Shown here piece after piece: positions 3,371-45,900 of a stretch of 64,000 bases of DNA; the stretch's first letter is position 1; each line of letters starts with the position of its first letter. The DNA is from Felis catus (taxonomy: Eukaryota), in NCBI RefSeq assembly GCF_018350175.1, contig NC_058382.1:54934001-54998000 (forward strand). Reading direction: 5' to 3'. Below the pieces are notes generated by a model, which saw only the letters and a program-made list of their open reading frames with translations, was not told where the DNA came from and made no database searches. The position numbers were made by a program, and so were the translations under genes.

Positions 3371-4733
3371 AAATCATCTTAAGGCATTGGATGTTGTGCT
3401 CCGGTCTCAGTGGACCACCAGGCCGTCTGCCAAGTCCTTCTTTAGCTGCACGTCTGCTCACCATACCTCACGGTGGGTGTCGGAAGTCAGTTCTGCACTT
3501 CGACCCCGTGCCTCCGTCTCTGAGGTTGCTTGAGGCCTACGGCCCCACTCCAGATTCCCCAGCCAGCCACTGGGCCTGTCTGTGCCAGAGTCGCTGTCGC
3601 CCGGGAGTAGGACAGGATGTGGACGAGTGGCTGACGTTTATCGAGCGCCTTCCTCACAGCTGGCGTCGTGTTCCGTGTGCTTTCCGTATAAATCTTCACC
3701 TGAACATTCTCACGTTACAGACAGAGTGGAGGCTTGGAAAGGTTAAATTATTTCTCCGGTGTTAGAAAACGCGGCCCTGGGGCTGGAGCCCGCCTTTGTC
3801 TGTCTCCACTGACTGTGGCACCGCAGGCGTGGGCCGGGGATCCGGGCCCATCTGTGGAGGGGCTGAAGAGGCAAGTCCAGAGGAGCGGAAGGTCCAGACA
3901 CTTTTCTTCTCATCTGACATTACGGTGATACTTTTCTTGTATTTTCCAAATCGTTGGTGTGCGATGGAGTAGAAATTACAGATAAAAGTAGAATTCTGGT
4001 CTCTGGCCTCAGACGGGTCGAGAAGTGCCGTCGTGAGCTGTGTGTGCTCTTTGACCTCTCGCTGTGGCCATGTGGGCCAGGCTCTGCTGCGGTAACACGG
4101 AGCCCGTCCGCCAGCAGCTCTGCACAGTCCAGGTGTATTTCTCAGCAGGGGCCTCGCTCCTCTCCGGAGCCCCCCAGGACCCAGACTCACCGAGGTCCCA
4201 CCTCCGCCCGTGCTTCCGCTGTCTCGAAGGCGAGGCTGAGAGACGTGGTGCTTGAATGCGGGTCTCCAGGTGGCTCACGTCACTTCACATCTCATGGCCG
4301 AAGGGCCACACAGGCACACCTGGGACTTAGGCGGTGAGTGTGGAGGGGAGGGGGGACCCTACCGTGTGCCCAGATAAAGGAGGCGGCTGTGCCTGCCCGG
4401 GGACAGCTGTTCTGCCACACTCGCGCCCATTCTCGCTCCCAGGTGTGACTGGTCCCCTGGGTCAGGACGACTCCTGCCGCCTCAGGGCTGCTGATTTGGT
4501 CCCACCATTTATATTGCACTTTTCAAAGGGAGCAGAGCCCGTGGATCCCAGAGCATCAGGGCATCAGGTCGGACCCTCCGGACCGGGTTTCTGGTCTCTC
4601 CTGAAGGGTGGCTTTAGAGTTTCGTTGGTTTGGGAGCTGGAAGTCTTGTCTGCTTCCGTCAGGCTGTGTGAGGGAAGAGATTATGAACAGTGTTGGGAAA
4701 CTACCCCGAAAGTTTTGCCGGGATAACTCCCCG

Positions 4734-4765
<32 letters not shown>
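4734..4765. repeat. Poly-C mononucleotide run (32 C)
   Basis: Directly visible. Confidence 0.95.
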
Positions 4766-5010: not shown

Positions 5011-6084
5011 GCTTTGATGGTGTTCACTGAGTCGGGGTCTGCGGAGACAGTAGCAAGGAAGGGTCCCCAGAGAAACGTCCAGCCCTTCAAAAAGCCCGGG
5101 GAAATCTTGGCGTTTCTTCTTGAGCCACGGGCCCTGGCTAAGTTCAGCCATTTGATTACACAGGGAAACCTGATCCTTCCTTTTATTGATATTTACTGCT
5201 TTTTAAAAACCGTCCGTATGTTACGGAAATAACATTGGAAGTGAAAATGGAAATAAAAATTAGTAATCGCGTAGGAACGCTAGTTTGGGGTGGGGACATG
5301 TTTTCCAAATATAAAGATAATGAAGTGGGAAGAAAATAAAGCGTGTCTTTGAAGTGCAAATGACTTGCAGCCTTTTTCCCACACGAACCCTGAGATGAGG
5401 TCACTTGCCGGCCCGGGCTCTGCTCTCTGGGGTCTTGGGCACTTGCCACAGAATCCTCGCCTCGGGGGTGTCAGGAGCTCCAGAAAGTGCAGGCTTACCC
5501 CCCCCCGTATCTTCTCCACATAACCATTTGACTTGCCGATTCAGAGGGAAAAAGGTTGAGTCATTTAACTGATAAGGTAATTTAAAACATGGCTCCGTTC
5601 TCTCGGAATGAGCATTTTACTTGAGGAGTGGAAAGGTTAAGTAATTTAACTGGGGCATAATTGATAACACGGCGCCCCTTTCTGGAAGTCTCCATTTTAG
5701 AAGATTTGGTGAGGGGGGAAAGGTTAAACAATCTAACTAGGGAGTCATTTAAAGTATTATTTTGCTATTAGAGCAAGGACAGATGTGGAGTGGAATAGAA
5801 AATTCTCAAGGCTTGTTAAGATTAAGCACATGACTTGAGCAAAATTTCCTGATGCGGTAGGTGTGGGTCACTGAGTGTTTGCCTTCTCTCCTGCGGGGTT
5901 CTTGCAGAAAGTAAGAACCCTCCTGGGTTCTCGGGAGGGTTTGCAGTCATAGTGCCGATATCGCTGTGCCCGTGTGTCCTGTTGCCGCACGGGACACCAG
6001 GCCGGCCTCGTGGCTCCAGATAGTCTAGGTGAACACAAGCAAATGCATGCATGTTTTCGTTTCCTTCTTTGTTTGTTTAGAAGA

Positions 6085-25129: not shown

Positions 25130-25660
25130 TGCTTTATGGATTCATTTACTATTTGCATTTCTTTTGCTCGTTGTTGAGGTCTTTGTGTTTCATTTTTAAT
25201 TGGGGTATGTCTAGAATCTTTTATTTTTTTAGAAAAAGGAGTTTGTGAGGGTTTCATCTTTGAGATAGAAACATTGTTAATCTTTTTTAAAACCTCAGGT
25301 CAATGATTGTCACCCCTTCCCACTTCTCTTGTCCAGCCTCTCAATTTTGTGTGGGGAATTTATTTGACATAGAGAAGTTTTACGTTTTCCTGCGGTCAGA
25401 TCTTAGTGTCTTAATTAGTGGCTTCTTAATGAAATGCCTTAGTTAGTGGTTTAAAAAGTTCTTCCAAATTTCAAGACTGGGCAAAAATTCCCCATTGTTT
25501 CTTTTTCTTTCTTTCTTTTTTTTAAGACATAACTGTAAAATTAGTCTAGAATTAATTTTTGGTATAAAGTGTAAGGCGAGGCATAGTGCTGTTCTTCCCC
25601 TCCAAATAGTTAACAAAATTGTCTACTAGTATTCACCAGTGTTCCCTTCCCCTCTGCTTT
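25130..25660 (-). mobile_element. Ancient L1 fragment
   Basis: T-rich: tagaattaatttttggtataaagtgtaaggcgagg, agaagttttacgtttt; continues ~26200-26340. Confidence 0.55.
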
Positions 25661-25712
25661 AAAATGTCACTATTATCATGAAAATAAACATTAAAAACAT
25701 TGAAAGAAAAAA

Positions 25713-25930
25713 GGGCGCCTGGGTGGCGCAGTCGGTTAAGCGTCCGACTTCAGCCAGGTCACGATCTCGCGGTCCGTGAGTTCGAGCCCCGCCTCGGGCT
25801 CTGGGCTGATGGCTCAGAGCCTGGAGCCTGTTTCCGATTCTGTGTCTCCCTCTCTCTCTGCCCCTCCCCCGTTCATGCTCTGTCTCTCTCTGTCCCAAAA
25901 ATAAATAAACGTTGAAAAAAAATTTTTTTT
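25713..25930 (+). mobile_element. Young CAN-SINE (SINEC_Fc)
   Basis: gggcgcctgggtggcgcagtcggttaagcgtccgacttcagccaggtcacgatctcgcggtccgtgagttcgagcccc; CpGs intact. Confidence 0.97.
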
Positions 25931-25981
25931 AAATGTCACTATTATCATGAAAATAAACATTAAAAACATTGAAAGAAAAAA

Positions 25982-26198
25982 GGGAGCCTGGGTGGCTCAG
26001 TCGGTTAAGCGTCCGACTTCAGCTCAGGTCATGATCTCATAGTTCACGAGTTTGAGCCCCGTGTTGGGCTCTGTGCTGACAGCTCAGAGCCTGGAGCCTG
26101 CTTCAAATTCTGTGTCTCCCTCCCTCTCTCTCTGCCCCTTCCCCACTCACTCTCTGTGTTTCTCTCTCAAAAATGAATGAACATTAAAAAAATTTTGT
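25982..26198 (+). mobile_element. CAN-SINE (SINEC_Fc-type)
   Basis: gggagcctgggtggctcagtcggttaagcgtccgacttcagctcaggtcatgatctc... Confidence 0.97.
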
Positions 26199-30015: not shown

Positions 30016-32344
30016 ATTGGGGCAATATTGTTCTCAGAATGTCACCCACGGCCACCACATTGTATGGGCTGCCCACAGGCACTCGTGGGTTAACGATGCC
30101 CAAGAAATAGCGAGCCAGCAGTGGGGTCTCCTGCTTGTGGGAGAAAGATTCCGTATCTGCCTTCCCGGGGTTTGTTGGAACAGTGGAAACACGGTCAAAA
30201 CCGGTTTCATCGTCATTCGTTAAGTGTGCTGTGGGTTAGCTGGAGTTTTCTCAGTGGATTTGCTTGAAGCTGGCGGGTACCTCTGTATTCTTACTTCATA
30301 AGCGGAGTAAGTTGATATCTGCAATTTAAGAAGAGCCTGGTTTTGGTAGGAAGTTGATTCAATTACCATTTTATAAGATTTTCTTGGTCTGGTCTTGATC
30401 CTGTGGATTTCTCTTGGTTACAGTAATTTCTGGGTGGTGATCTATCCCCTGTCATTTAAGCCAAGTGACACTGGCATTCGGTGCACCCAAAGAACATACT
30501 AGAACAGCCTTGTTCCAAGAAGATAGAAAGAGGCATTAGGTGAAGTGGCATGGAACATCTCAAACTGAGACTGTGTTGTGATCTCAGGCAAGGATGTGAT
30601 TATCTGATTCTGCCCGCCCCCCCCCCCCCCCGCAGGCAGGTTGATTCCTTCTGAGGTCATTAATTTCATCCACATCCAGGGGGAAATTGTGTTCATTTTG
30701 AATTAAAATAAAAGTAATGGGGTTCATCTGGTTTTGGAAACCTTAATCTCTTAAAGCTGATACGATCCGTCTGTCTATAAGTTCATCATGGGTCAGAACA
30801 ACAGTATTTATATTCATACACACAGGACATTCGATTAGATAGCACAGAGGAAGAACACATACTGATGGGGCGTGATTACCGTGAACTCAGGCAGCCCAGA
30901 TTCTCCGGTCCTCCTGAATGTCATATTAGCTGGGGATATCCCTTTTGTGACGCAGGATCTTGCAGCAAAACAGTTGGGTGTAGCCGCCTGAGAGAAAGAA
31001 ACGCTCGCAGCAGGGATTTTCCAAGCAGGCGCCTCAATTGCACAGAAAAACATCTTGACAATGTTTCCACGAGCCCAGCAGTCCGAGGGTTTTGTGCACA
31101 ACGTTGAAAGGGCTCTAACCAGGGCATCCTTGGGGCTTGATAGTGGTGGACGGGGACACTGCCAAGTATCTGGCTGTCCCGGGGGCCTGACACAGATGTT
31201 TGCGGGGCCCACGGTGATGCAAAGAATCGAGGGCCCTTTTGGAAGCACAGGCTGCAAGATCGGTGTTTTCAGGTGCAAAGGAAAGGGCAACGTTTATACG
31301 GAACTGCACTCTTCTGCTCAGGAATCCTGTGCTAGCTCTCACTGCTTTTGGGAAACCTTCAGGATTCTCGGCCTGGGGCCTGGGGACGGGGGATGGTTCC
31401 ATCTGGACCTGTGTCTCCCACCTTCTCCTGTTCCGTGGAGTTCACTTACCTGGCTCCAGCCAAAGGGTCTGTTCCCTTTGTTCGGCCGGGCCACGCCGAC
31501 CACCTCCAAGCGCTCACTGTCCTCTTTGCAAAGACCGATCTTCCCTCCCACCTCCACTCTTTCCCCGCTAATTCCCCTCTTGTTCTCAGCCTCAAGGCCA
31601 CTGTCATAGGGGGCCCCTGCCACAGGGGACCTTTTGTGGTCCTCCCTGACCTCCGCAGCCTGGGACAGGATAGGTCGGTAATTCTCTTTGTGGGCTTTAC
31701 CAGCGCAAGCACAATTCACATGAAATAATGACTCATCCATTGGTGGTTTTGTGTCCTTCTCCACCACGTTCGTATCGCTGCCCCCTCCTCCCCATGCCAC
31801 GCGGAGCATGTACCAGCATCCAGTGATGGGGGGTCCCCTGGGAGATGAAGACAAAACAAACTTTTGTAGCGAATGGGGGTTGGCAGGACTTGTCTCATTG
31901 CAGAATAATCTCCACCACCTTGGAAGTACCCTCCGAGTGCCACTTCTTGGTGAATTGTGAGACACATGGCATGTCGGGTTAAATGGAGGAAATCTCAAGG
32001 GTTGTTGAGCGGTTGGTTGCTGTGGCAGCTTCGTGCGTACATTGACCTTGGGGTCTGGTCAGAACATGCTGGTTTGATGACTCCACTAACTGTTTCTGGT
32101 CCTGCCCATTGAAGATGTCCAGCCAGGGATGGTTTGACCATGCCATTCACTGCTCCCCCAGCCAAGAGGCAGACAGCCGCTCCTTTGAAGCCAAATGAAA
32201 ATGTTTCTTATTTTGAATGTTATTTTCATTTCTTTTTTTCTTTTTTTTTTTTTTTAAGCTGCACACTTACTGGGCTCTGGGCTTATTTGTTTTAAGTGCT
32301 GAACTCTTCTGTTAAAGTTTTATTGATTAAAAAAAAAAAAACTT

Positions 32345-32511
32345 GGGGCACCTGGGTGGCTCAGTCGGTTAAGCACCCAACTTCAGCTCAGGTCACGATC
32401 TCAAGGTTTGTGGGTTCTAGCCCTGTGTCAGGCTCTGTGCTGATAGCTCAGACCTGGAGCCTGCTTTGGATTCTGTGTGTCTCTCTCTCTCTGCCCCTCC
32501 CACACTCACAC

Positions 32512-32550
<39 letters not shown>

Positions 32551-32584
32551 GAAAAATAAACATTAAAAACATTAAAAAATAAAA
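32345..32584 (+). mobile_element. CAN-SINE (SINEC_Fc-type)
   Basis: ggggcacctgggtggctcagtcggttaagcacccaacttcagctcagg... Confidence 0.97.
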
Positions 32585-32600
32585 CTCAGTTATGTACTTA

Positions 32601-32808
32601 AAAAAATTTTTTTTCATTTATTTATTTTTGAGAGACAGAAAGAGTACAAGTGGGGAGGGGCAGAGAGGGAAGGAGACAGAATCCAAAGCAGGCTCCAGGC
32701 TCTGAGCTGTCCGCACAGAGCCCAACGCGGGGCTCGAACTCACAAACTGTGAGATCATGACCTGAGCCGAAGTCGGACGCTTAACTCACTGAGCCACCCA
32801 GGCACCCC
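32601..32808 (-). mobile_element. CAN-SINE (SINEC_Fc-type)
   Basis: Reverse-complement SINE; TSD ctca(g/a)ttat(g/a)tactta at 32585-32600 and 32809-32824. Confidence 0.97.
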
Positions 32809-33262: not shown

Positions 33263-34429
33263 GTAAGTCAGACTTTGTGGAGATGTATCCATGTTAGTTC
33301 AATGGAACCATATAAATTGTGCTAACCTGACTTACTCCTCTAACTGTAAATGGCAGAAGATTTAACAGATGGGCTGGGATTCCCAACACCCTGCCGTCTA
33401 CTCCCTCGGCACTGGCTGGAGTACAAGCTGGTAGGGCACTCTGGGAAGGCTGCGCTTCTCTTCCGGCAAGTTCTGTTGCATGTTACCAAGGGCCAGTTGT
33501 GCCTGTCCCAGACCTGATCAGGCTGATTGTAGGTGTTATTGTAATTACACAATTTACTTGAAGATTATATAAACTTCTGGAACACCAGTGCGAAAAGAGA
33601 GTGGTCGTTTATATGAAAGCCAAACGGAATGCTTCCGAAAGTCTCAGTAGAGAGTTGCTGAAAACCAGGCTGTTGTGGGTGAGACAGCGGAGAAGGCCAT
33701 ACTACCACCGGCCTCGTGGAGGTCTTTAAGGAAACAGGAATTGGATGTTGTCTGTTGCAAATCGCTTGGGGTTTATGTGAGCAAGATAGTGGGGACGTCA
33801 GAGGCGGGGCCATCCTCAAGGAAGAGGCATTGTCCCTACCATGAAAGATGGGGAACAAATACACATTTTGCGTGTTTCCAGTAAAAATAACACACCTGTT
33901 TCATTTCATAATAACGATTGACTTCTTTTGGGCTCATCGCCAGTCACTGGTCCTGGTAGCTGGAGACCCACCGTTCTCTGTTCACATTCCATGAAATGCT
34001 TGTCCCTCCACCTCCGGCCCTGTCAGTGGATGTGAAGGTCATTTCTCACCGTTCACGTGTAAACACAGTGCAGGAGCAAACAGCTCTTCTGAGATTGTGT
34101 GCACAGATCAGTTGTGGGTACATGCTGAGGCGCAGAATTGCTGGGTGTGGGCTCACTTGGTCGGCAGGGAAGCTGGAGCTCCATGACCCAGGACGGGTTT
34201 TTACCTGGGAAGGAGGGTTGCACAGGGGCCGTATGTTAAACGTGAACGTATTCAACCAGTGCTTGGGTCTCTTTACTTAGCAGGCGTTTCTCGTGCCTCA
34301 CTTGGTGTGCCGGGGGCTGCGGTGGGCCTTGGGGGTTAGGAGATTCCCATGCCTGGCCTCGCGAAGCAGGCCACATTATTCTGTATGTGGGAGAACAGAC
34401 TGCCTGAGTCTCTGGACCTTCGTCTGAGC

Positions 34430-34790
34430 GGAATGCTCTCCATCTGTCCTGGTCACCTCGGACCACCTTAACACAATACCACCGACTTGGGGGGCTTGAG
34501 CAACAGACATTTGTCACAGCTCTGAGGCTGGAAGTCTAAGGCCAGGGTGCCAGCCTAATCGGTGCCTCGCGAGAGCCCTCTTCCCGGGCTTCCCCCCGTG
34601 TCCCCACGCGGCCGAGACCGAGGGCTCTGGGCTCCCTCTTCTTGCAAGAGGTTCCCACTCTCATGTCCTCCTCTAACCCCAATTATTCCCCGAAGGCCTC
34701 GCTTCCCAATCTCATCACAATGGGGGTTAGGGCCTCAGCGTGTGGATTTGGGGGGTGGGTATTGGAGACACAAACATCCAGTCTGTACCA
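34430..34790 (-). mobile_element. MLT1 LTR
   Basis: aacacaataccaccgacttggggggcttgagcaacagacattt...tcacagctctgaggctggaagtctaag...cacaatgggggttagggcctcagc. Confidence 0.85.
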
Positions 34791-35464
34791 TCCCCATCAT
34801 GGGAGAGCAGAGAGGGGAGCATTTTACAGGGGGGCAGAATTTATAAGATTGACTTGTAGCTTTGCTTTTGAGGGGGTTGTGAATTTTCTGTTCTAGGCTT
34901 AGTGAAAGGCAAGTTCAGGGGTCCATTCCAAAGAGTGTCCGTCTGAGCCCCTGCTGACTTGGAATGTGTGAGGTGGGGGAGGGCAAAGGTCTGGCGTCGT
35001 GGGACCCCTGTGTCCCTCCTGGTTCTGCCCAGTGCTTGCTCTGTGGCCTCGAAGAGATTGCTTCACCTCTCTGGGCCTCAGCGTACACATCTGATAGGTG
35101 GGCTGGGTCGGGCTTGGGCAATCCGAAGACAGAATGGTCCTGAGATGGCACAGAGTTTGTGGCTGTCTTGGCCTTGGGCAGAATGATGCCCTTCCCTCTC
35201 CTCACATCACAGCCAAGGCTGCACGACAGCCCCAGAGCCTTCTTGGTTGGCACCATGAGAACGTTCTAGAGCAATCACGTTCACCCCCATAGATGGCTGC
35301 TTACCGCGAAGGCATTTTATCGGCCAGCCATTCCCACGTTAAGGTCCAGGGCTGCTGGGACTCTGCCGTTGCCCTTCTGGGCCCTGCTGCACCTGTCTGT
35401 GGCCCTGCCTTGGCCCAGTGAGCAGTGGGTCTGAATGTGATGAGAAGGAGGTCAGTCGGGAGAA

Positions 35465-35620
35465 CGAGAGTCTGAGCCTTGAAGGAAGAAGGCCTGGGTT
35501 CAAATTCAGCCTTTAGCTCTGTGATTTCAGGCATGTTACTTTCCCCCTCTGTGCCTCAGTTTCCACACATGGATAAAACAGACTACCGTCTTAGAACAGT
35601 GCCAGGCCTGACAAAGGTGG
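35465..35620 (+). mobile_element. MIR SINE
   Basis: cctgggttcaaattcagc...tctgtgcctcagtttccacac...ttagaacagtgcc. Confidence 0.8.
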
Positions 35621-36063
35621 AGTTCAGTTCCCTGCGACGAAGAGAAATCCTTTGGCCCTGGAAGTCTCTCTTTCCAAGGAAGTAACTAAGTTTGAGTTCA
35701 TTGTTTAAAAATTGACTCTTTCCAATCCAGCTGTGACCCCTGAAGTCCCTTCTATTTCAGAACTTCCCCTCTCTCTGTAAAGAAAAGAGTATACTGAGCT
35801 AATTGCTGGTATGAACCATATTGCAGGGAAAAAGGTTTATCCTGCTTAGGAGAATGCAGCTATTTTAAGGAACCTTTAGCACATTTTTATTTGCATCCAC
35901 CTGCTGCAAGAAATCTCCATTGTGAACGAGCCTCCTTGGGGTAACCGTTCTCCTTGGAGATCAGACCCTCCGCTCAGGAGAAAGGGGGAGGGGTAGAGCG
36001 TACCAGGTGCAGGCCCCGCGTGGTGAGGTCGCCCCCCATCATTCTACCCTTCGTGGGGTTCCC

Positions 36064-36114
36064 TGATCGCCTCCCCTTGCTGCACCGCGGTTCTGAATTT
36101 GTGGAGACAGACCC
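36064..36114 (+). repeat. Left arm of perfect 51-bp inverted repeat
   Basis: tgatcgcctccccttgctgcaccgcggttctgaatttgtggagacagaccc is the exact reverse complement of 37005-37055. Confidence 0.97.
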
Positions 36115-36451
36115 GCACTTCCCTTTTAAATGTGGGAGGAAGTTTCCTTCTAAAACAGGGCCCAGGCTGCAACGTCATGCAGGTGAAAGAGAGTGGGTTT
36201 ATTGCAGTCTCTGGTGCTGCGTGTGGTACACCTAACCTGATTACCCATTGAGCTCTCTTGTTCTCAAGGTGTGAGTTAGTGTGCGCGTGCGTGCAGGTGG
36301 GCCGGGAGGTAACCTCCTGTTTATCAACATTTCCTCCTCCAGCCAGCCTGGAACTGGCCCTCAGGCCTCAGCTTTCAGAACACACCCTCTCTGCTTGGAG
36401 TCTAGAGGCTCCCGTTTCTGCCCTGGGCACAATGCCGTGGAGCCAGGCCCA

Positions 36452-36706
36452 TGAGTGTGTGTGTGTGTGTGTTTGTATGCGTGTGGAGTGTTGCACCTGC
36501 ACACGTGTGTGTAGGGGGGTTTACGTGCATGCGTGTTTACATGTTTTGTGTGTGTGTGTGTAGGGCGTGTATGTGTGTGTGTAGATGTGTTTGTACGTGC
36601 ACGTATGTGTGTTTGTACCTGTGGGGGGTGTTTGTGTATGTTTGTGTGTGTGTGTGTGTGTTTGTACATGTATGTGGAGTGTTGTGTGCATATACACGTG
36701 TGTGTG
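36452..36706. repeat. Degenerate (TG)n-rich low-complexity tract
   Basis: Interrupted gtgt/gtat/gcgt repeats over ~250 bp. Confidence 0.9.
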
Positions 36707-37004
36707 CAGGGGGTGTCTCCAGAGTCGAGTAACTTGAGTGGCACTTAAAACTCCCCATCACCCACAGGGCGAAGTTCGCCTCCTTGTTTTCCAGGCAGAG
36801 AAGGCTGAATTTGGCCCCAAATCAATCTTTATTTTCATCTCCTGCCAGTTCCTTACCAGGCACCCTGTGCCGCAGCCGCAGACAGACAGCCTTTTCTTAT
36901 TGCCCAAAGGGCCCGTGATCGTGGGTACTTCTAGACCTTCGAGCGTGCCAGGGATCCCCATTCTGTCCTCTTTCCTGGCCCAGCTCACATGCTGTGAAAC
37001 CTCT

Positions 37005-37055
37005 GGGTCTGTCTCCACAAATTCAGAACCGCGGTGCAGCAAGGGGAGGCGATCA
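37005..37055 (-). repeat. Right arm of perfect 51-bp inverted repeat
   Basis: gggtctgtctccacaaattcagaaccgcggtgcagcaaggggaggcgatca. Confidence 0.97.
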
Positions 37056-38389
37056 CGCCTGCCCAGGCCTCGTCCTCCGTCCTCTGGGCTACTTAGCCTT
37101 CCGTGTCCTTGCAAGACATGCTCACCGCGTGCACTGTTGTATTTGATTTAATGTGTCCGTCATCCCAGCAGACGTCCTGCTACCTGAGAACAGGTACAGA
37201 GTCCGATCCGTCACCACACGCAGCACACACAGTGCCTGGGGGGGCGCCCACGCTTGGTGCTGGTCAGAGCGAAGGAGCGGACGTTCGTGTGGCGAGGCTA
37301 GAAGAGCTGCTTGGCAAACGGCATCGACATCGATCATAGTATGTGTTTATTGGGTGTTCGGTGCTGGGCCCCGTGCTAAGCACTTTACCTCAGTGAATGC
37401 GTTTAATTCAAACCACCCTGGCAGGCAGGTGCTGGAATTATCCCCCGTTTTCAGCTGGGAACGGGAGGCTCGGGAAGGAAGAGAAAGTTTACTCCGGGTC
37501 GCTCGGTTATACGCGGTGGGTCCAGGATGCTCACCGTGAAGGAGGGTAACCAGTTACCTACCACCCTGCTTCCGTTCTGGAAACCAGCCTCTCCTTGGCA
37601 CTTCTTCCACGTGACAGCGGCTTTCCAGCTCCTCTTGCCCTGCCTGCCTGCCCTCCCACGTGCCCTAGGATCTTTGCACGGGATTTCCACGTGCGGTTGC
37701 AAGTCTGGGTCTCAGCTGAATGACAGAGCACAGGGTCCCCCACAGGCCTGTAAGAGAATTCCTACATTTGCTCCAAGCGGTATCACCCCCCCTCACCGGA
37801 GGCATACCTAGTGACTGCAGGGAGAACCCATCGTGACCTACATCAGAAGGAAGTGGGGCAGCCAGTCGGGGGGAGAAACACAGATGACGCTCGCTCGCCG
37901 TGAATAACAGTGTTGCAGAACATCACAGCCACCGGTCGGGGATGAAAGGCATTGGTTGATAATAGAAGCTCACGCTCATCCTCATTGTTATAAGTTAATA
38001 ATTTTTCTGAGACCTCCTGAGGGGACCCCGCTGCCTGAGCAGGGAGGGGAGGGAACGGCGGCCCCAGGGCAAGGAGGAGTCCTGCTCTTCAACTGAGTCT
38101 AGAGCGAGCAGACTTCCCCGGCTTCTTCCCTGGCGTCAGGGGGAGAGGGAAGGACACCCGAGAAAGGACGTCTCACTCTGGTGGCGGCCGCTCACTGTGG
38201 ACACCCGGTGAGACGGAGCCCAGGATGCGGGGCCCAGACGGTCTCTGAGGTGGGAAGGAAGAACCGGGCTGGAAATCCGTTCAGGAGCCAGTCCAGCGGC
38301 CTGCTTTCTCTTCCGTCTGTTCTCCGTGGGCTTGGCGGCAAAGGGAACGAGGCTCCGAGCGGCAGGCCATGCATTCGTGCACGCGCTCA

Positions 38390-38630
38390 TCTGTTTCATT
38401 AATGTTTATTGAGGGTCTGTGTCCCAGGAAGCACGCAAAACGCTGGGGATATAGTGATGAGCAAAGGCTGTGTCCTACCCTCGCGACGCTCTCAGCCTGC
38501 TGGAGAAGACTGATGTCAGATGCTTATAATGTGGGCTGATAAAGTAGGGTGATGAACATCATTCGTTCGTTCGTTCATTCGTTCAACCAACCCGCGGGTG
38601 CCGAGCACCTACTATGCTCTGGGCATTGTT
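38390..38630 (-). mobile_element. L2 3' fragments
   Basis: aatgtttattgagg...gctggggatatagtgatgagcaaa; cattcgttcgttcgttcattcgttcaacc...gagcacctactatgc. Confidence 0.7.
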
Positions 38631-38828
38631 CTAGACCAGCGCTGCCCAATATGGTAGCCACTAGCCACATACGGCTGTTGAGAGTTAATTAAAATTAAAC
38701 AAAAGTAAAAGTTCGGTTCTTCAGATTTCAGAGACTCTGTGGCCACATGTGGGTAGTGGCTCCTGTACCGGCCAGGATGGACACAGACCATTTCCATCGT
38801 TGCGGAAAGTTGTGTTGGGCGGGCTGCA
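38631..38828. mobile_element. MER3-like hAT-Charlie element
   Basis: cagcgctgcccaatatggtagccactagccacat...ttaattaaaattaa...gccacatgtgggtagtggct...catttccatcgttgcggaaagtt. Confidence 0.85.
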
Positions 38829-39839
38829 GAGGTGAGGCGCTCGGAAAAGCTCTCTGCCCTCGGGTTCCAGATCTAGCGGCTTTGGATACAGACCGGTGTG
38901 TGTTCCTTAGCAGACGGGGTGGTAGGCGCACAGATGGGGCCGCACGGAAGCAGGGCCGAGCCTGGCCTAGAGGGAGGGATGTTTCAGTGAGGTCTGAGTC
39001 ACGTGAAGAGGGTGGGGGGCAAAAGGGGCAGGGCCCAGCGTCCCGGGAGGGAGGAGCATGTGTCCAGGCCTGGCCATTAGAAGGAGGCCGGAGAGACCGC
39101 GTGGCTGGTTGTAGGCCCCACGTGTGTTGACTGGGCCATGCGCGAGGGACCAGCTGAAGGCAGAAGAGACCAGGCCGCACAGGCTCTCCTGGGACTTTCT
39201 GCCACCCCTGAGGCCGACCCTTCCCTGGGCGTGTGGGCAGAGGGTCCTGTAACCGCATCGGCCAGACTCTTGGAAGGAAGGTCTGGTTCGAGGGGCCAAG
39301 GGTGTACATCTTGCTCAGGCTGAGCCCTGGGGACAGACTGCCCCGTCAGGCAACAGCTGAGGGTAGCAGATGGGGGATGGAGAGAGGAAGGAGGAGGGGG
39401 GAGGAAGTGCCTGCTTCGAGCTGTCTGCAGGGTCCAGCCATGGGTGTCTGTCCTCTCAGTGTCCAAGAAAACAACTTGGGAAGCAGCCCCTGCTCCCCTT
39501 GTGGGACCGCAGAAGGAAGGCAGAGGCAGCGGCTGTGATTCTGGGGCAGCCAGAGCGGATTCGACATCTCCACCCGCCTGGGACTGGGTCGTGCCCTGGG
39601 GAAGAGGGGACACTGGGAGAGTCAGGCAGCCCGTTCAGCTCCGCTCTGTCCTGTCACTGGAGCAGCTCACAGCCACAGGTCCCAGCTTCCTTCCCTGCAG
39701 TCTGGTGACAGTAATGTCATCCTGTAGGGCTGCTGGGACAGTTTTGACATAATCAGAGCCACTGGCGTTCGTGGAGGGCTTACCTTGAGCCAGGCATTGT
39801 GTTGCATCCTTCACACTAGGATCTCTTACCAGAGACCCC

Positions 39840-39980: not shown

Positions 39981-40794
39981 CGGCTGAGAGCCCCATTTTA
40001 CAGACGGAGCCGGCTGCCGTCCGAGCCGAACCGTGGGCATCAGGCTTCAAACTCAGGTCTGTGTGCCTGGGCTTGGCACTCAGCCATGAACTCCATTTTA
40101 CCTTTGGCCTGGGCGGAAGGAGCGCGGCCCAGGGCCAGGCGCACAGTAGGTGGTCGGTGAGGCCTCTTCCCATGACAGAGCGCTGGTTCATTCAGTCAGA
40201 AAACCAGACCCTTTGTGCTGGCAGCTGGCAGCGCAGGGTGGGGAGGGCGGGGCCCGACCCCCAGCCTGGCCCTGACTTACCTTACTTGCTGGAACACCAC
40301 AGCCTGCTTGAGGGCGGAGGGAGCCGTTTGTACTTGACAGGCCACGATTAACCTCGCCCGGCTGGTAAATCATCCGAAGGACAGAACTTTCCCCTGGAAA
40401 ATGCCAGCCTGGCCGACGCGGGCCGTTGTTTCCCATCTGCACTTCCTCCCTCGGGCTTGGACGGCCCACCGGGTCGGGAGCCACGCAGAGGGCCGCCGCA
40501 AAATTGTGCCCGAGTAGATTTCTCCCTCTCTTTCCTGCCAGGGCTGGGCTGTGTGTGTGTGTGAGTGAGAGCGAGCGAGAGTGTGGTGGGGGTGTTGGGG
40601 AAGCAGCCCCGAGAGGCAGGCCTGAGGCCTCCTTGTTTGTTTACTGTCTTTGGAAACCACCATCAGTGATGCAATCATCCCCAGAGGGCAGAGGTGGCAA
40701 GGACTGGCCTTTGCCAAACCTGGCACTGTGGGCCTGGAGCAGGGCACGGGGTGCCGACCGGCTCCCTCGTCCCCTCTATGTCGAGGAACCGTGC

Positions 40795-40930
40795 ATGTAC
40801 ACACACATGTGCGTGCACGCTCATATTTAACACGTGCCTCTTTAACAGCGTGAGCTCTGTGTGCATGCGCGCACACACACGTGTGTGTACCTGTCTGTGC
40901 GTGTGCGTGTGTGAGTGTTGTGGTGTGTGA
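40795..40930. repeat. Degenerate alternating purine-pyrimidine (TG/CA/CG) tract
   Basis: gtgcatgcgcgcacacacacgtgtgtgtacc...gtgcgtgtgcgtgtgtgagtg. Confidence 0.8.
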
Positions 40931-42677
40931 TGTGACCCACCCGCGCCGTGGTTGTAGGGCCGAGGTCATGTCCTCCAGGCACCTGGCACGTGCCGATGTT
41001 GGCCCTTCTCCTTCGCCTCTCCTTTTCATACGCAGCGGATACACAGCTGGGTTGGACGCACAGCTTTGCCTGTTCCTGGCTGTGACCTGAGGCCAGTCAT
41101 GTGCGCGGAGTCTCAGTGTTCTCCTCTGTGAAAGGGGAGAGTTAAGGCAGCTGCGGGAGGTTGCAGTGAGGTCCACGGGTGACCGGGGTGCACCTGGCTG
41201 GGGGCCGGGCTGGGAGAGGGCAGGCCATAGACGGCTTGTCCCCCAGCTTGGGGAGGCGTGGCCTTGCCCACGGGGGGCTCAGGAGAACAGTGGGGGCTTT
41301 GGCTGCTTGCTGCTCTTGACCCTGAAAGCTTGGCGGCATCGGGTAGGACTGCATAGGCGGGTCTCACCCTACCTTCTGTGTTCTTGGTGTGGTTAGTCAC
41401 ATAGCTTCTGGTGCCAGGGGAGGCCTGAACTCAGTGGGGATTTTGTGCTCCTATGGCTTGCCTGGTCAGAGTTAGAAATTACTAGAAGGCCAAGGTCGGG
41501 GGCTCCAGAGACCCTGGTTTTGCTCACTGGTGACCACCACACTGTCATTCTTACATGAAGCTGCCGCCCTTTTCTGTGGTGACAGCCCCCGGCATTCTCC
41601 CTATTTGCCCAGGAGAGGACAAAGAATCCCACTCCCATTTTGTGCACACCGCGTGCCCCCTCCCCCCAGCTCCATCAGATAAATCCAGAGGGTTCTCAGT
41701 AACCACGGACAACGGAAAGCGAAGAAAATAGGAGTATTTTCTCTGCCTTGCCACTGTTTTCCGATTAGTCACTCCTAACTAATTAGCAAGTGACAAATGG
41801 GACAATAAAGCTCTGAAAATATCCATCGACATCCTAGAATCGCAGCCACAGACATGGCAGAGGGCCTGGCAAAGAAGCAGAGAGGGGGGAAGACATCTGT
41901 GGGAGGGAGGCACAGAGGTCCGAGGCGCTCTGGGCATGTCAGGAAGGTGGCTGCAGGTGGGCCTGAGAGACACGCGTGGGACATGTGCGGGGGTGCGGGA
42001 AACTCCCCCCCCACACACACACTGTCTGGGAGAAGTGGTTTCCCGTCACCATCATCCAGGGACACAGGTGGACGTCCCCCATCTGGTGTGGAAGTTGTCA
42101 TGGGGACCCTGGGGACTGTGTCGGGGTCTCTGGCCAGGGTGGCCTCTCTCTGAAGGCAGCTGAGACCCCTCAGGTGGACAGTGTGTGGGGGGGGCGGGTG
42201 TGTGGGGGGGCGGCAGCTGCTGCTTCCGTAGCCAGGTCCCCCCACGCCTTCTTAGGACGGCTGAGGTGGTGCCGCGACATCGGGCAGAAGATGCTCTCTG
42301 GCAGCTCTGTTGACGTGTCCGTGGAGGGTCCGCGGGGACCCGCTCCACATGGGCGGCACACGGGGGGCTGGGTGGCGGTTGTCCCAGGAGGACATGCAGC
42401 CCCCCTGCCCCGCGAAGCCCCGGGATTCCCGGGGTGCTCAGCGTTGCGGTGCCGTCCTTTGGCCTTGGAGGCCTCACGGAGTTGTCTCATGTCACCTCCT
42501 CTCATGTGTTCGGCCACAGCCCGTCCTGTCACCATGGCTTGGCTTCAAGGGGGCAGGAATCTCCATCCCTCACTACTGGGAAGGAGGAGACAACTCAGCG
42601 GCCATTGTCTCATGAATGTAGGTTCCGTGGGGCTGATTGTCGCCGGCCAGGGAGCCCGAGAGTGCCCTGCAGGGCAC

Positions 42678-42998
42678 TGTAGTTTCCTGTGGCTGGTATG
42701 ACAAGTTCCCACGAACTTGGAGGCTTAGAACCACACCAGTTTACTGTCTCACGGTTCTGGAGACCAGAAGTCCGACATGGGTCGTCCCCAGGCTGCCTGC
42801 GTCCCCAGGCTCACGATGGCACTGCTCCCGCTCTCCGCCTCTGCCCCTCCTCCCTCCCTCTTACAGGGACCTTCTGAGGCCACGGGGCCCACAGGGTAGC
42901 CCAGCATCACCCCCATCTCGGCAGAGTATTCACAGGTTCTGGGGATTCAGATGTGGACACCTTGGGGGGCCTGGGGGGGCGTGGTTCTGCTGACCACA
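42678..42998 (-). mobile_element. MLT1 LTR remnant
   Basis: tgtagtttcctgtggctggtatgacaagttccc...ctcacggttctggagaccagaagtcc...attcacaggttctggggattcagatgtggacac. Confidence 0.85.
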
Positions 42999-45900
42999 GC
43001 GGGCCAGCCCTGGCACGAGAGACCCAGATCCCTCCCGCCCCCACATGTCCCCCCATTTCCGCCAGACACTGTGCCGGGGCTGGGGGTGACTAGGTCCCTG
43101 CCCTCACAGAGTTTCCAGTCCGTCCCAGAGGGGAGGCCGACGTGAACGGGAGTTTCCACGGGCAGGCGAGTTTTATCGGGTGACCCGGTCTCCTCCTCCA
43201 GGGCTGCGGGAAGCGACTCGTCAGCTGTGGTCTGAGGGAGGAGGAGGGTGAGGGAAGTCAGCCGGGAGCACAGACCTACAGATGGGTCTCGGCACCCGGG
43301 GCCTGAACTCCCTGTTGCTGGAAATCCCTCCTCGTTTTTGTCCGCCGTGGTGGCGCCTGCTCTGTCCTTGGACCCTCCGCCCGCTGGTTTTCTGGAAGGT
43401 GGGAGGGGTCGGCTCCCTCCCTGCCCTGGTCTCTGGCCCAGCGGCCGTGCCTCCAGGAGGCTGCCTGGACGTGGCTGCAGCGATGTGGGAAATAGGACCC
43501 AGGACCATATTTGCAAAAGCAACAGAGTTGAAAGCTGGGCGGGCAGGCTGGGTTCAGCTGTTTGCACTGGGGGAAGCGCTGGCCTCAGAGATGCCTTCTT
43601 CCTCCTCCGGCCAGAAAGGGAGGTTGTTTCAGACTCTCTGATGAGGAGCATCTATTCCAAACAAACCCTGCTGCCCGTCCGGTGCCAGCCTGGAACAGGG
43701 AAGGCGACTGTGACACGCCGGGCCGCCCCTTCACGGCGGTGGGTGAGGTTGCTCAGGCCAGCGGTGGGGGTGGGGGTGGGGGGTGGGGAGCAGGACCTCA
43801 AGTCCAGCCTTGAGATAAAAGCCGGGCACGCTCCCGCCGGCTGCGGACACACCTCCCCTCCCCGCCCCGGAGATGCCATTGTGTCTTGTCTTTCCTGCGC
43901 CCTCGCCTCTCGCCAGAAGCTGTGGGTCGCACAGCCGACGTTCTTCTCTGGGGTGGAAAAAATCAGAGAATGAAGTACGAGCTTCTGATTAGCAGAGACA
44001 GAAAAATCACTGGCGGGGGGGGTCCCTGTGCTGCAGCCTCCCCAGGTCCCCTTGCTGTCACATGCCCGCACTCCTCGGCCTTCCAGCACCCTCTGGGCTC
44101 TGGACGCAGTGGGCAAGGGCGTCCGGTGGGCTGTGAGCAGCAAGGTGGGTTGCCACGTCATACTCGGTCCTGGGCCGGGAGGCGGAGGCTGCCTCCCCAG
44201 CTCGTGGGTGTGACGCGGCCCTCTGAGCGTGCCACTTGGGAACCGAAGTAAATAGTTGCTAAGTTAATTGTCTTCCTTGCTGAGCTCAGCGAGGGCAGAG
44301 ACCCTAGGACGTAATCGGCACCCAGGAAGTGTGTACGTTGAGTGGAACCTACCTTCGCTGTAAGAATTGAGTTTTACCTCTGAATTAACAAGTTCTAGGT
44401 GTGTAGTTTAACCTCAGAGGAAATACCCTTCTCTTCCAAAGGTATTTCTACCTACTGTTCTGTAACTGAGCTCATTTAATGCAAAGAGAAGCGAAGGAGC
44501 AGGGGGATTCAGAGGAATCTCCTGCATCAGCCGGATGTACAGCAGACTAGTGGTGGTAAGTGGGGCATCTGTTCCACTGCTTTCCACAGGTGTGCCCGGG
44601 GCAGACGTCAGTAATCAATCACCACCCTTTCCACTTGAGCCCCGATGCGGCTGCAGAATCCTTCCCAACTCACTTCCAGGAAGCCACCTCCAGGCATCTG
44701 AGAGGTCTGCAAAATCCCGAATTGGCAGATAGGTCCACGTAATCTAATGCATCTCATACCTTCTACCCGGATTTCTACTCTGACTCAGGACAGTCGCCGT
44801 ACTTTCTCGTTTTCTTCATTCCCTAGCATCAACAAGTGTCTGTCCTCCTGCAGCCGCTTTACGGGCGGAATAACCCTGGTCAGGCCACTTCATTCTTCCG
44901 TGGCGCTCAGGCCCTTGTCTGTAGATTGGAGGGAATCGTACACCTGGCAAGACTCCGTGAGACCCAAGCAAAGCACAGAACGCTTAGCACAGTGCCCGCT
45001 AGCACCTAATGGCACTCAAGAAACGACCACAGCCTTAAAATACCTTTGTCCCCCATCTGGGGCGGGGTGGGGGGGGCAGATTGAGCCCCTGGCCGCAGGT
45101 GGTGCTGGGCTGGAAGGGCCCAGGGGCGCCCAGCCCTTCCCAGAGGCAGTAAGCGTTCCCCAGCCTCTGGCAAGCCCTCCTCAGCAAAGTCCTGCAACGG
45201 GAGGGCCACCCTCTCTTGCCCTGGTGCCTCACCCCTGCATTCACAGTCCCAGGGGTCCACCCCAGGGGGCCTTGTCTCAGGTCTGCCGCATCCAGCAAAA
45301 AGCCAGAGCCAGAAGAAAGCCCGTCATTTCCCCTCTTGCAGAAATCCACAAGAAGTATTTCCAATGTTGTCATAGTTATAATAAGCAGCAGGCATCATCC
45401 AGGGAGGGGAAACGTGACGGAGCAGTGCGGAAAAAAATACCCTTGGTTCCTTTATCTCCAGAGTGGTCTCTGTGGCTCTGGAGAAATCAGGGTTCCCCTG
45501 GGCTTAGGTGGGAACAGTTTTCTCCTTTCTGACTTAGCTTGAGGGCACAGAACTACACCCCAGTGGGGGACACACAGACCTGGTGACCGTACGGACTTGC
45601 AAACATCGCTGCCAGGCCTCCCCAGGGGGGGGGGGGGCGTCCTCCGGCAGATCCGAGCGGGTCCCTGCAGGCCCCAGGTCCCCTGAATGGAAAGGGCCTG
45701 CCAGGCAGGAAGTAGGTGGGGAGGGCACCTGGCTGAGAAGGCCCGGGGCCCCTCTGTGGCGCCTGCTGCTGTTACAGGCAGCTGGTCAGGGGCGTTACCT
45801 GGGCAGGTGTGTTTCGTCTTCCTTGCCCCTGCCGGTCCCTGTTTGTCCCTGGGTTCAGATCCCTCGGCCTTCTCCAGAACTCCACGTGCCCGACGTTGCT

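What the first reader, a model, noticed from the sequence alone, without database searches (positions are those of the whole stretch)
36064..37055. Perfect 51-bp inverted repeat in apparently unique DNA enclosing an 890-bp loop
Seen: 36064-36114 (tgatcgcctccccttgctgcaccgcggttctgaatttgtggagacagaccc) and 37005-37055 are exact reverse complements, and pairing stops abruptly on both sides. The same peptide DRLPLLHRGSEFVETDP therefore appears in two opposite-strand ORFs. The arm resembles no repeat I recognise, and I saw no TSD outside the arms. Its CpGs (tcgc, ccgcgg) are intact in both copies. The loop holds a ~250-bp TG-rich tract and acceptor-like sites (ctccttgttttccag|g at ~36794). Inference: either a very recent event (template-switch insertion, or an inversion made by staggered breaks that left an inverted duplication) or a selected long-range RNA pairing. 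If transcribed, a 51-bp perfect stem is long enough to be an ADAR/dsRNA-sensor substrate and could loop out or circularise the enclosed segment.
Basis: partly seen in the sequence, partly recalled or inferred. Interest (0 to 1): 0.7.

Follow-up and report, generated by a model that had tools for sequence, protein, structure and literature searches.

The report
Recent inverted copy-paste mutation scar
About 50 bases of ordinary non-coding DNA in a cat-family genome were recently copied backwards into a spot 0.9 kb away, leaving a perfect inverted repeat that is most likely a neutral scar of a known DNA-copying error rather than a selected RNA structure.

Summary
The repeat is in the assembly as described: 36064-36114 and 37005-37055 are exact reverse complements with an 890-bp loop. 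No genome or reads were obtained. Two chance gene calls on unnamed public contigs turned out to be the orthologous DNA of more distant mammals. P0015 runs collinearly through loop start, LEFT arm and left flank; the arm has diverged like its flanks. P0014 runs collinearly through loop end and right flank and lacks one 50-nt block at 37003-37052. So the left arm is ancestral, the right arm is a clean, derived inverted insertion, the loop was not inverted, and the arms are not transposon ends. Perfect identity, CpGs included, means youth (95% bound about 7-13 My), not selection. Best reading: a templated inverted insertion (template switch or repair synthesis), a known and common class. Its 0.9-kb reach exceeds the usual short-range definitions. 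Not tested: read support (artefact about 7%), age within cats, polymorphism, transcription, editing. Each junction rests on one outgroup sequence seen only as protein. Interest low.

The parts
36064..36114 (+). Left arm: ancestral unique DNA, the template of the copy
   Evidence: Outgroup gene call P0015 aligns collinearly across it and both flanks; score 119 native, 62 with the arm removed; divergence like the flanks
37005..37055 (-). Right arm: derived inverted copy of the left arm, net insertion of about 50 bp with no detectable loss at the target site
   Evidence: Outgroup gene call P0014 aligns with one 50-nt DNA-only block at 37003-37052 under 3 of 3 parameter sets; removing the arm raises the score from 183.5 to 199.75; boundaries uncertain by a few bases
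37053..37055 (+). Last 2-3 bases of the right arm, possibly ancestral at the target site (candidate microhomology at the outer junction)
   Evidence: The outgroup residue before the outer flank fits this codon with no change; about 9.5% by chance; inferred from protein only
36115..37004 (+). 890-bp loop: ancestral DNA in ancestral orientation, not an inserted or inverted element
   Evidence: Loop start collinear with the left flank (P0015; inverted arrangement scores 65.5 against 119); loop end collinear with the right flank (P0014); strand-bias likelihood ratio 3.5-9 for native orientation
36451..36715 (+). Degenerate TG tract inside the loop; same orientation as 8 of 10 long TG/CA runs of the window (3 of the 8 are in this tract)
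36828..36881 (+). Locally better-conserved block inside the loop (18 consecutive codon positions needing no change against the outgroup); possible non-coding element, function not tested
   Evidence: permutation p=0.008

Best explanation
A single recent germline mutation. DNA synthesis at about 37004/37055 (a stalled fork or a break under repair) switched to the opposite strand 0.9 kb away, copied about 48-51 bases of unique DNA (36064-36114) and returned to where it had left, with almost no loss. This made a perfect inverted repeat around an untouched loop. Shown: polarity (left old, right new), clean insertion, no inversion of the loop. Inferred: priming by 2-3 bases of microhomology at the outer junction and none at the inner one; an age of a few million years or less; neutrality. 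Which polymerase did it (replicative template switch/MMBIR, polymerase-theta end joining, or repair of a meiotic break) cannot be told from the sequence.
For: P0014 (E 3e-12; minimum nucleotide divergence 13%) lacks a 50-nt block at the right arm under 3 of 3 settings. Of 13 control removals of 51 nt, only the 2 that overlap most of the arm (192, 190) beat the native score of 183.5, and exact arm removal scores best (199.75); 8 shuffles score at most 8.75. P0015 (E 8e-6; minimum divergence 18-19%) holds the left arm in place. Strand bias independently favours the left orientation of the arm (likelihood ratio 1.5-3) and a non-inverted loop (3.5-9). Two copies 13% apart would be 51/51 identical with p=0.0008. 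The class is common: 4017 short-range events in great apes, copied length median 12 and maximum 128 (PMC7954356); inverted duplications are the commonest non-mobile-element inversion class in 1,019 humans, mostly with 1-15 bp microhomology (PMC12350158).
Against: No reads were seen, so the right arm is known from this one assembly only. No felid gene call spanning a right-arm junction was found, neither with nor without the arm. Each junction rests on one unnamed outgroup sequence seen as protein, and the two may be different species. The microhomology is weak (9.5% by chance), and seven alternative placements cost only one more change. The template lies 890 bp away, beyond the 100-bp limit used to define MMB-TIs (PMC8421209). 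Neutrality is inferred from youth and non-coding context, not measured.
Confidence: 0.85

Rival explanations
1. Assembly or library artefact: the right arm is a chimeric or mis-joined inverted copy that exists only in this assembly.
For: The copies are perfectly identical; 51 is a commonly used assembly word length (recalled); the outer end of the arm contains a GATC (about 2 per kb in the window); no read-derived sequence crossing a right-arm junction was found.
Against: The insertion is clean and leaves both flanks collinear with the outgroup; the window has no N. Inspected template-switch candidates in human were confirmed as reliable assembly (PMC5453318 passage). The look-ups are uninformative as negatives: only 4 of 9 chance ORFs elsewhere in the window were in the collection.
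Confidence: 0.07
2. The insertion arose by accident but the 51-bp RNA stem now has an effect (A-to-I editing, altered splicing or back-splicing, or hiding the conserved block in the loop) and is kept by selection.
For: The stem is predicted to form on either strand (mean pair probability 0.995 and 0.998; duplex -112 kcal/mol). The window-wide T-over-A skew (-0.08) fits the inside of a + strand transcript. The loop holds a better-conserved block (p=0.008).
Against: The right arm is absent from an outgroup; the left arm is not conserved above its flanks; no Rfam match at gathering score (only sub-threshold matches); no Pfam match in 113 of 113 + strand ORFs scanned; inverted SINE pairs nearby give stronger duplexes.
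Confidence: 0.05
3. An 890-bp inversion made by staggered breaks left the inverted duplication (Ranz et al. model).
For: Such inversions leave inverted duplications as short as 46 bp, often at one breakpoint only (PMC1885836 passages).
Against: The loop start is joined to the left arm and flank, and the loop end to the right flank, in the outgroups exactly as in the window (inverted arrangement 65.5 against 119); strand bias favours the native orientation.
Confidence: 0.015
4. The arms are the terminal inverted repeats of a MITE or DNA transposon, or two copies of a short dispersed repeat.
For: The geometry (perfect arms around a spacer) resembles one. No genome-wide search was possible, so further copies elsewhere are not excluded.
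Against: The loop and the left arm are orthologous, collinear ancestral DNA; no target-site duplication at the outer ends; no third copy in 64 kb; no match in plasmids, viral contigs or metagenome contigs.
Confidence: 0.015

Closest known systems
Template-switch mutations, four-point model (PMC5453318; PMC7954356)
   Same: One-step creation of a perfect inverted repeat by a reverse-complement copy of nearby DNA; net length gain; copied length within the reported range (maximum 128).
   Different: Those studies search tens to hundreds of bases around the event and the median copy is 12 bp; here the template is 890 bp away and the copy is about 50 bp.
MMBIR-like templated insertions, MMB-TI (PMC8421209), and human inverted duplications (PMC12350158)
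   Same: Germline inverted copy of a local template inserted with little or no loss; short microhomology is compatible with the data.
   Different: MMB-TIs are defined with templates within 100 bp; microhomology here could only be inferred at one junction; human inverted duplications have a median of 284 bp.
Inverted local insertions at mouse meiotic hotspot pairs (10.1101/2020.06.23.168138)
   Same: 16-709 bp local inserts in inverted orientation, with microhomology at one junction and little at the other.
   Different: Those inserts sit in kilobase deletions in Atm-null germlines; here the source and the intervening DNA are retained.
Staggered-break inversions with inverted duplications (PMC1885836)
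   Same: Inverted duplication of unique sequence at two nearby points.
   Different: Needs an inverted spacer; the spacer here is not inverted.
Class 2 templated sequence insertion polymorphisms (PMC5110952)
   Same: Short templated patch with no target-site duplication or poly(A); donor intact.
   Different: TSIP donors are distant; this donor is 0.9 kb away on the same molecule.

Membership tests
Templated inverted insertion (template switch / MMB-TI / inverted duplication) | Insert is an exact reverse-complement copy of local DNA | tested here: met
   51 of 51
Templated inverted insertion (template switch / MMB-TI / inverted duplication) | Insert absent from the ancestral allele, flanks contiguous | tested here: met
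   One outgroup gene call, P0014: 50-nt DNA-only block at 37003-37052
Templated inverted insertion (template switch / MMB-TI / inverted duplication) | Donor intact and ancestral | tested here: met
   One outgroup gene call, P0015
Templated inverted insertion (template switch / MMB-TI / inverted duplication) | Microhomology at one or both junctions | tested here: inconclusive
   2-3 bp possible at the outer junction, 9.5% by chance; seen only through protein
MMB-TI in the strict operational sense (PMC8421209) | Template within 100 bp of the insertion | tested here: not met
   890 bp between the arms; so it works like an MMB-TI but is not filed in the strict class
Templated inverted insertion (template switch / MMB-TI / inverted duplication) | Present in the animal's DNA (read support) | not testable with these tools
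   The one run search listed none under the filter chosen, so no reads were laid
Staggered-break inversion | Spacer inverted relative to the ancestor | tested here: not met
MITE / DNA transposon with terminal inverted repeats | Whole element absent from the empty site; target-site duplication | tested here: not met
   Loop and left arm are ancestral; no duplication outside the arms
MITE / DNA transposon with terminal inverted repeats | Many copies genome-wide | not testable with these tools
   No genome held; only two copies in the window
Selected long-range RNA pairing (editing-complementary or splicing-regulatory stems) | Both arms conserved across species, with compensatory change | tested here: not met
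   Right arm absent in P0014; left arm diverged like its flanks. Conservation within cats alone was not tested
Selected long-range RNA pairing (editing-complementary or splicing-regulatory stems) | Transcribed, edited or affecting splicing | not testable with these tools
   No RNA data obtained
Class 1 TSIP / retrotransposed insert | Target-site duplication of 5 bp or more and poly(A) tail | tested here: not met
   0 shared bases at the right arm, no poly(A)

The most novel reading that the evidence does not exclude
One template switch over 0.9 kb built, in a single step, a 51-bp perfect RNA stem around a conserved intronic block, and this stem now changes editing or splicing of the host transcript in cats, or lets the 890-bp loop flip recurrently so that both orientations segregate. 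That would be a dated, natural example of a regulatory long-range pairing born whole.
Probability: 0.06. Interest if true: 0.55.

Novelty: new member of a known kind. Interest (0 to 1): 0.14.

Why it matters
As found it matters little: it is one more templated inverted insertion. It is a tidy case (donor and empty target both seen in outgroups, no loss, longer reach than standard short-range screens cover) and could serve as a lineage or population marker in cats. It shows that a perfect long stem in an intron is by itself a sign of youth, not of selection. It would matter more only if the stem were shown to alter RNA processing or to make the loop flip.

Tried and rejected
No whole genome is held. 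The single run search (34000-39500, DNA, library word PACBIO) listed none; this means 'none was listed', not 'none exists', and my narrow filter may have caused it; so no reads were laid. DNA scans for the arm found nothing in plasmids, viral contigs or metagenome contigs. Rfam: 0 at gathering score; 7 sub-threshold matches, several on the TG tract. Pfam: 0 of 113 + strand ORFs; the minus-strand ORFs among the 254 listed were not scanned, so the host gene is unidentified. Protein searches with two other junction-spanning frames found nothing. Exact look-ups found 0 of 7 junction-crossing ORFs (1, 6); 4 of 9 other ORFs were found and 0 of 3. I tried to show that the right arm interrupts an old L2-type repeat (label recalled): pairwise scores were weak and partly out of register, one profile gave nothing, and another gave only E 0.5 at 37148-37281 in 1 of 3 builds; dropped as evidence. 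A 3-bp match at the left arm briefly suggested that it was the insert; rejected. No G-quadruplex-like motif in 35401-37700. One paper asked for by DOI was not held. A search on felid structural variants listed 9 papers, none evidently about this locus from the listing; since the gene is unnamed I make no claim that the variant is unpublished. An earlier count said 9 of 16 arm codons change; the count is 10 of 16.

Full report
Observation. The two arms are exact reverse complements over 51 bases with 890 bases between them. Identity ends at once on both sides, and the flanks align no better than shuffles (p=0.87 and 0.61). Chance expectation is about 8e-22. The arm has no further copy in the 64 kb and no match in plasmids, viral contigs or metagenome contigs.

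Context. It has no Rfam match and no Pfam match in 113 of 113 + strand ORFs scanned (minus-strand ORFs were not scanned). A T-over-A skew of -0.08 on the + strand suggests the inside of a long transcript. The host gene was not identified.

How outgroups were reached. No genome is held and the one run search listed none under my filter, so no reads were seen. Four of 10 chance ORFs of the window are in the protein collection letter for letter, which shows that gene callers have been run on mammalian contigs. Such meaningless gene calls can act as probes of orthologous DNA. Of four junction-spanning frames searched, two found a relative and two found none.

Right arm. P0014 (135 aa, 44% identity, E 3e-12) follows window 36738-37184 on the + strand. 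A frameshift-aware alignment needs at least 13% nucleotide change and places a single large DNA-only block of 50 nt at 37003-37052 under 3 of 3 gap settings. Removing the arm raises the score from 183.5 to 199.75. Of 13 control removals, only the two that overlap most of the arm beat the native score, and eight shuffled proteins score at most 8.75. P0014 shares no word longer than 2 residues with any of the six arm frames. The right arm is therefore absent from that outgroup, and the sequences on its two sides are contiguous and in the same orientation there.

Left arm. P0015 (149 aa, 46% identity, E 8e-6) follows the minus strand from about 36330 through the arm to about 35920, at a minimum divergence of 18-19%. 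It scores 119 against the native arrangement, 62 with the arm removed and 65.5 against the arrangement an inverted loop would give. Within the arm 10 of 16 codons need a change, against 53 of 114 elsewhere (Fisher p=0.29). The left arm is old, in place and not specially conserved.

Independent internal check. A strand-specific model trained on the rest of the window favours the present orientation of the loop without its TG tract (likelihood ratio 3.5-9 over four model orders) and, weakly, the left orientation of the arm (1.5-3).

Mechanism. The simplest account is a templated inverted insertion: synthesis left the target site, copied about 48-51 bases from the opposite strand 0.9 kb away and came back with a net gain of about 50 bases. 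The outgroup residue just before the outer flank fits the last codon of the arm without change, so 2-3 terminal bases may be ancestral and may have primed the switch. This is weak: 9.5% by chance, and seven other placements cost one more change. No homology is seen beyond the inner end. The pathway (replicative switch, MMBIR, polymerase-theta joining or meiotic break repair) is not determined. With the cat rate of 0.86e-8 per generation at 3.8 years (10.1101/2021.04.06.438608, start of abstract in a search listing), zero differences give a 95% upper age of 13 My, or 7.4 My if CpG sites are assumed to mutate ten times faster. The intact CpGs thus reflect youth.

Function. If transcribed, the stem would form (mean pair probability 0.995; -112 kcal/mol). 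Two inverted SINE pairs in the window, one only 248 nt apart, give stronger predicted duplexes (-229 and -154), so this stem adds little to what the region already offers to dsRNA-binding proteins. Acceptor-like sites number 4 across the repeat against 1.7 per kb in the window. The loop contains an 18-codon block with no required change against the outgroup (36828-36881, p=0.008); it predates the repeat. Nothing tested points to selection on the pairing; expression and editing were not testable.

Comparison with what is known. Template-switch mutations create perfect inverted repeats in one step (PMC5453318, passages; PMC7954356, passages and part 1 of section 8: 4017 events, copied length median 12, maximum 128). 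Germline inverted templated insertions with microhomology are described in PMC8421209 (passages; templates within 100 bp by definition). In 1,019 humans, inverted duplications are the commonest inversion class outside mobile elements (277 of 733, median 284 bp; PMC12350158, passages). Local inverted inserts with microhomology at one junction occur at mouse meiotic hotspots (10.1101/2020.06.23.168138, passages). Staggered-break inversions (PMC1885836, passages) need an inverted spacer, which is not met. TSIPs (PMC5110952, passages) come from distant donors. PMC8755829 was seen as abstract and outline only and is not relied on. No supplements were read; the event tables of these papers could show how rare a 0.9-kb reach is. 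Fifteen earlier notes of this scan hold the same key words, and the 8 shown reach like verdicts in other genomes; they are unchecked, came after my conclusion and are not evidence for this locus.

Limits. Each junction rests on one unnamed outgroup sequence seen only as protein, the two may come from different species, and synonymous changes are invisible. The right arm is known from this assembly alone: 0 of 7 junction-crossing ORFs were found by exact look-up, which is uninformative given how patchy such gene calls are. I put an artefact at about 7%.

Verdict. Real in the assembly, recent, polarised and mechanistically ordinary: a templated inverted insertion with a somewhat long reach. New member of a known kind; interest 0.14.

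Noticed in passing
window 25658-26193: Two carnivore-type SINEs head to tail, each preceded by the same 54-bp exact sequence (25662 and 25931; 97 nt at 97%): an unusually long target-site-like duplication around the younger SINE.
   Followed up: no
window 36828-36881: Better-conserved block inside the loop (18 codon positions without required change against outgroup P0014, p=0.008), starting near an acceptor-like site at 36848; possibly a non-coding element.
   Followed up: partly
window 32345-32808: Inverted SINE pair only 248 nt apart with a predicted duplex of -229 kcal/mol: a stronger dsRNA candidate than the 51-bp stem.
   Followed up: partly
window 36930-37280: By eye the right arm seems to interrupt an old L2-type repeat remnant (label recalled); in-window profiles gave only E 0.5 for 37148-37281 in 1 of 3 builds.
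   Followed up: partly
window 31061-31606, 38731-39309, 40373-41029, 42950-43651: Chance ORFs of this non-coding mammalian DNA are present letter for letter in the public protein collection: spurious gene calls on host contigs, useful as probes of orthologous DNA and a caution against reading such hits as genes.
   Followed up: yes
window 4733-4765: Run of about 33 C; real or a sequencing-error-prone homopolymer.
   Followed up: no
window 5500-5850: AT-rich non-repetitive block that looks by eye like a conserved non-coding element; not tested.
   Followed up: no
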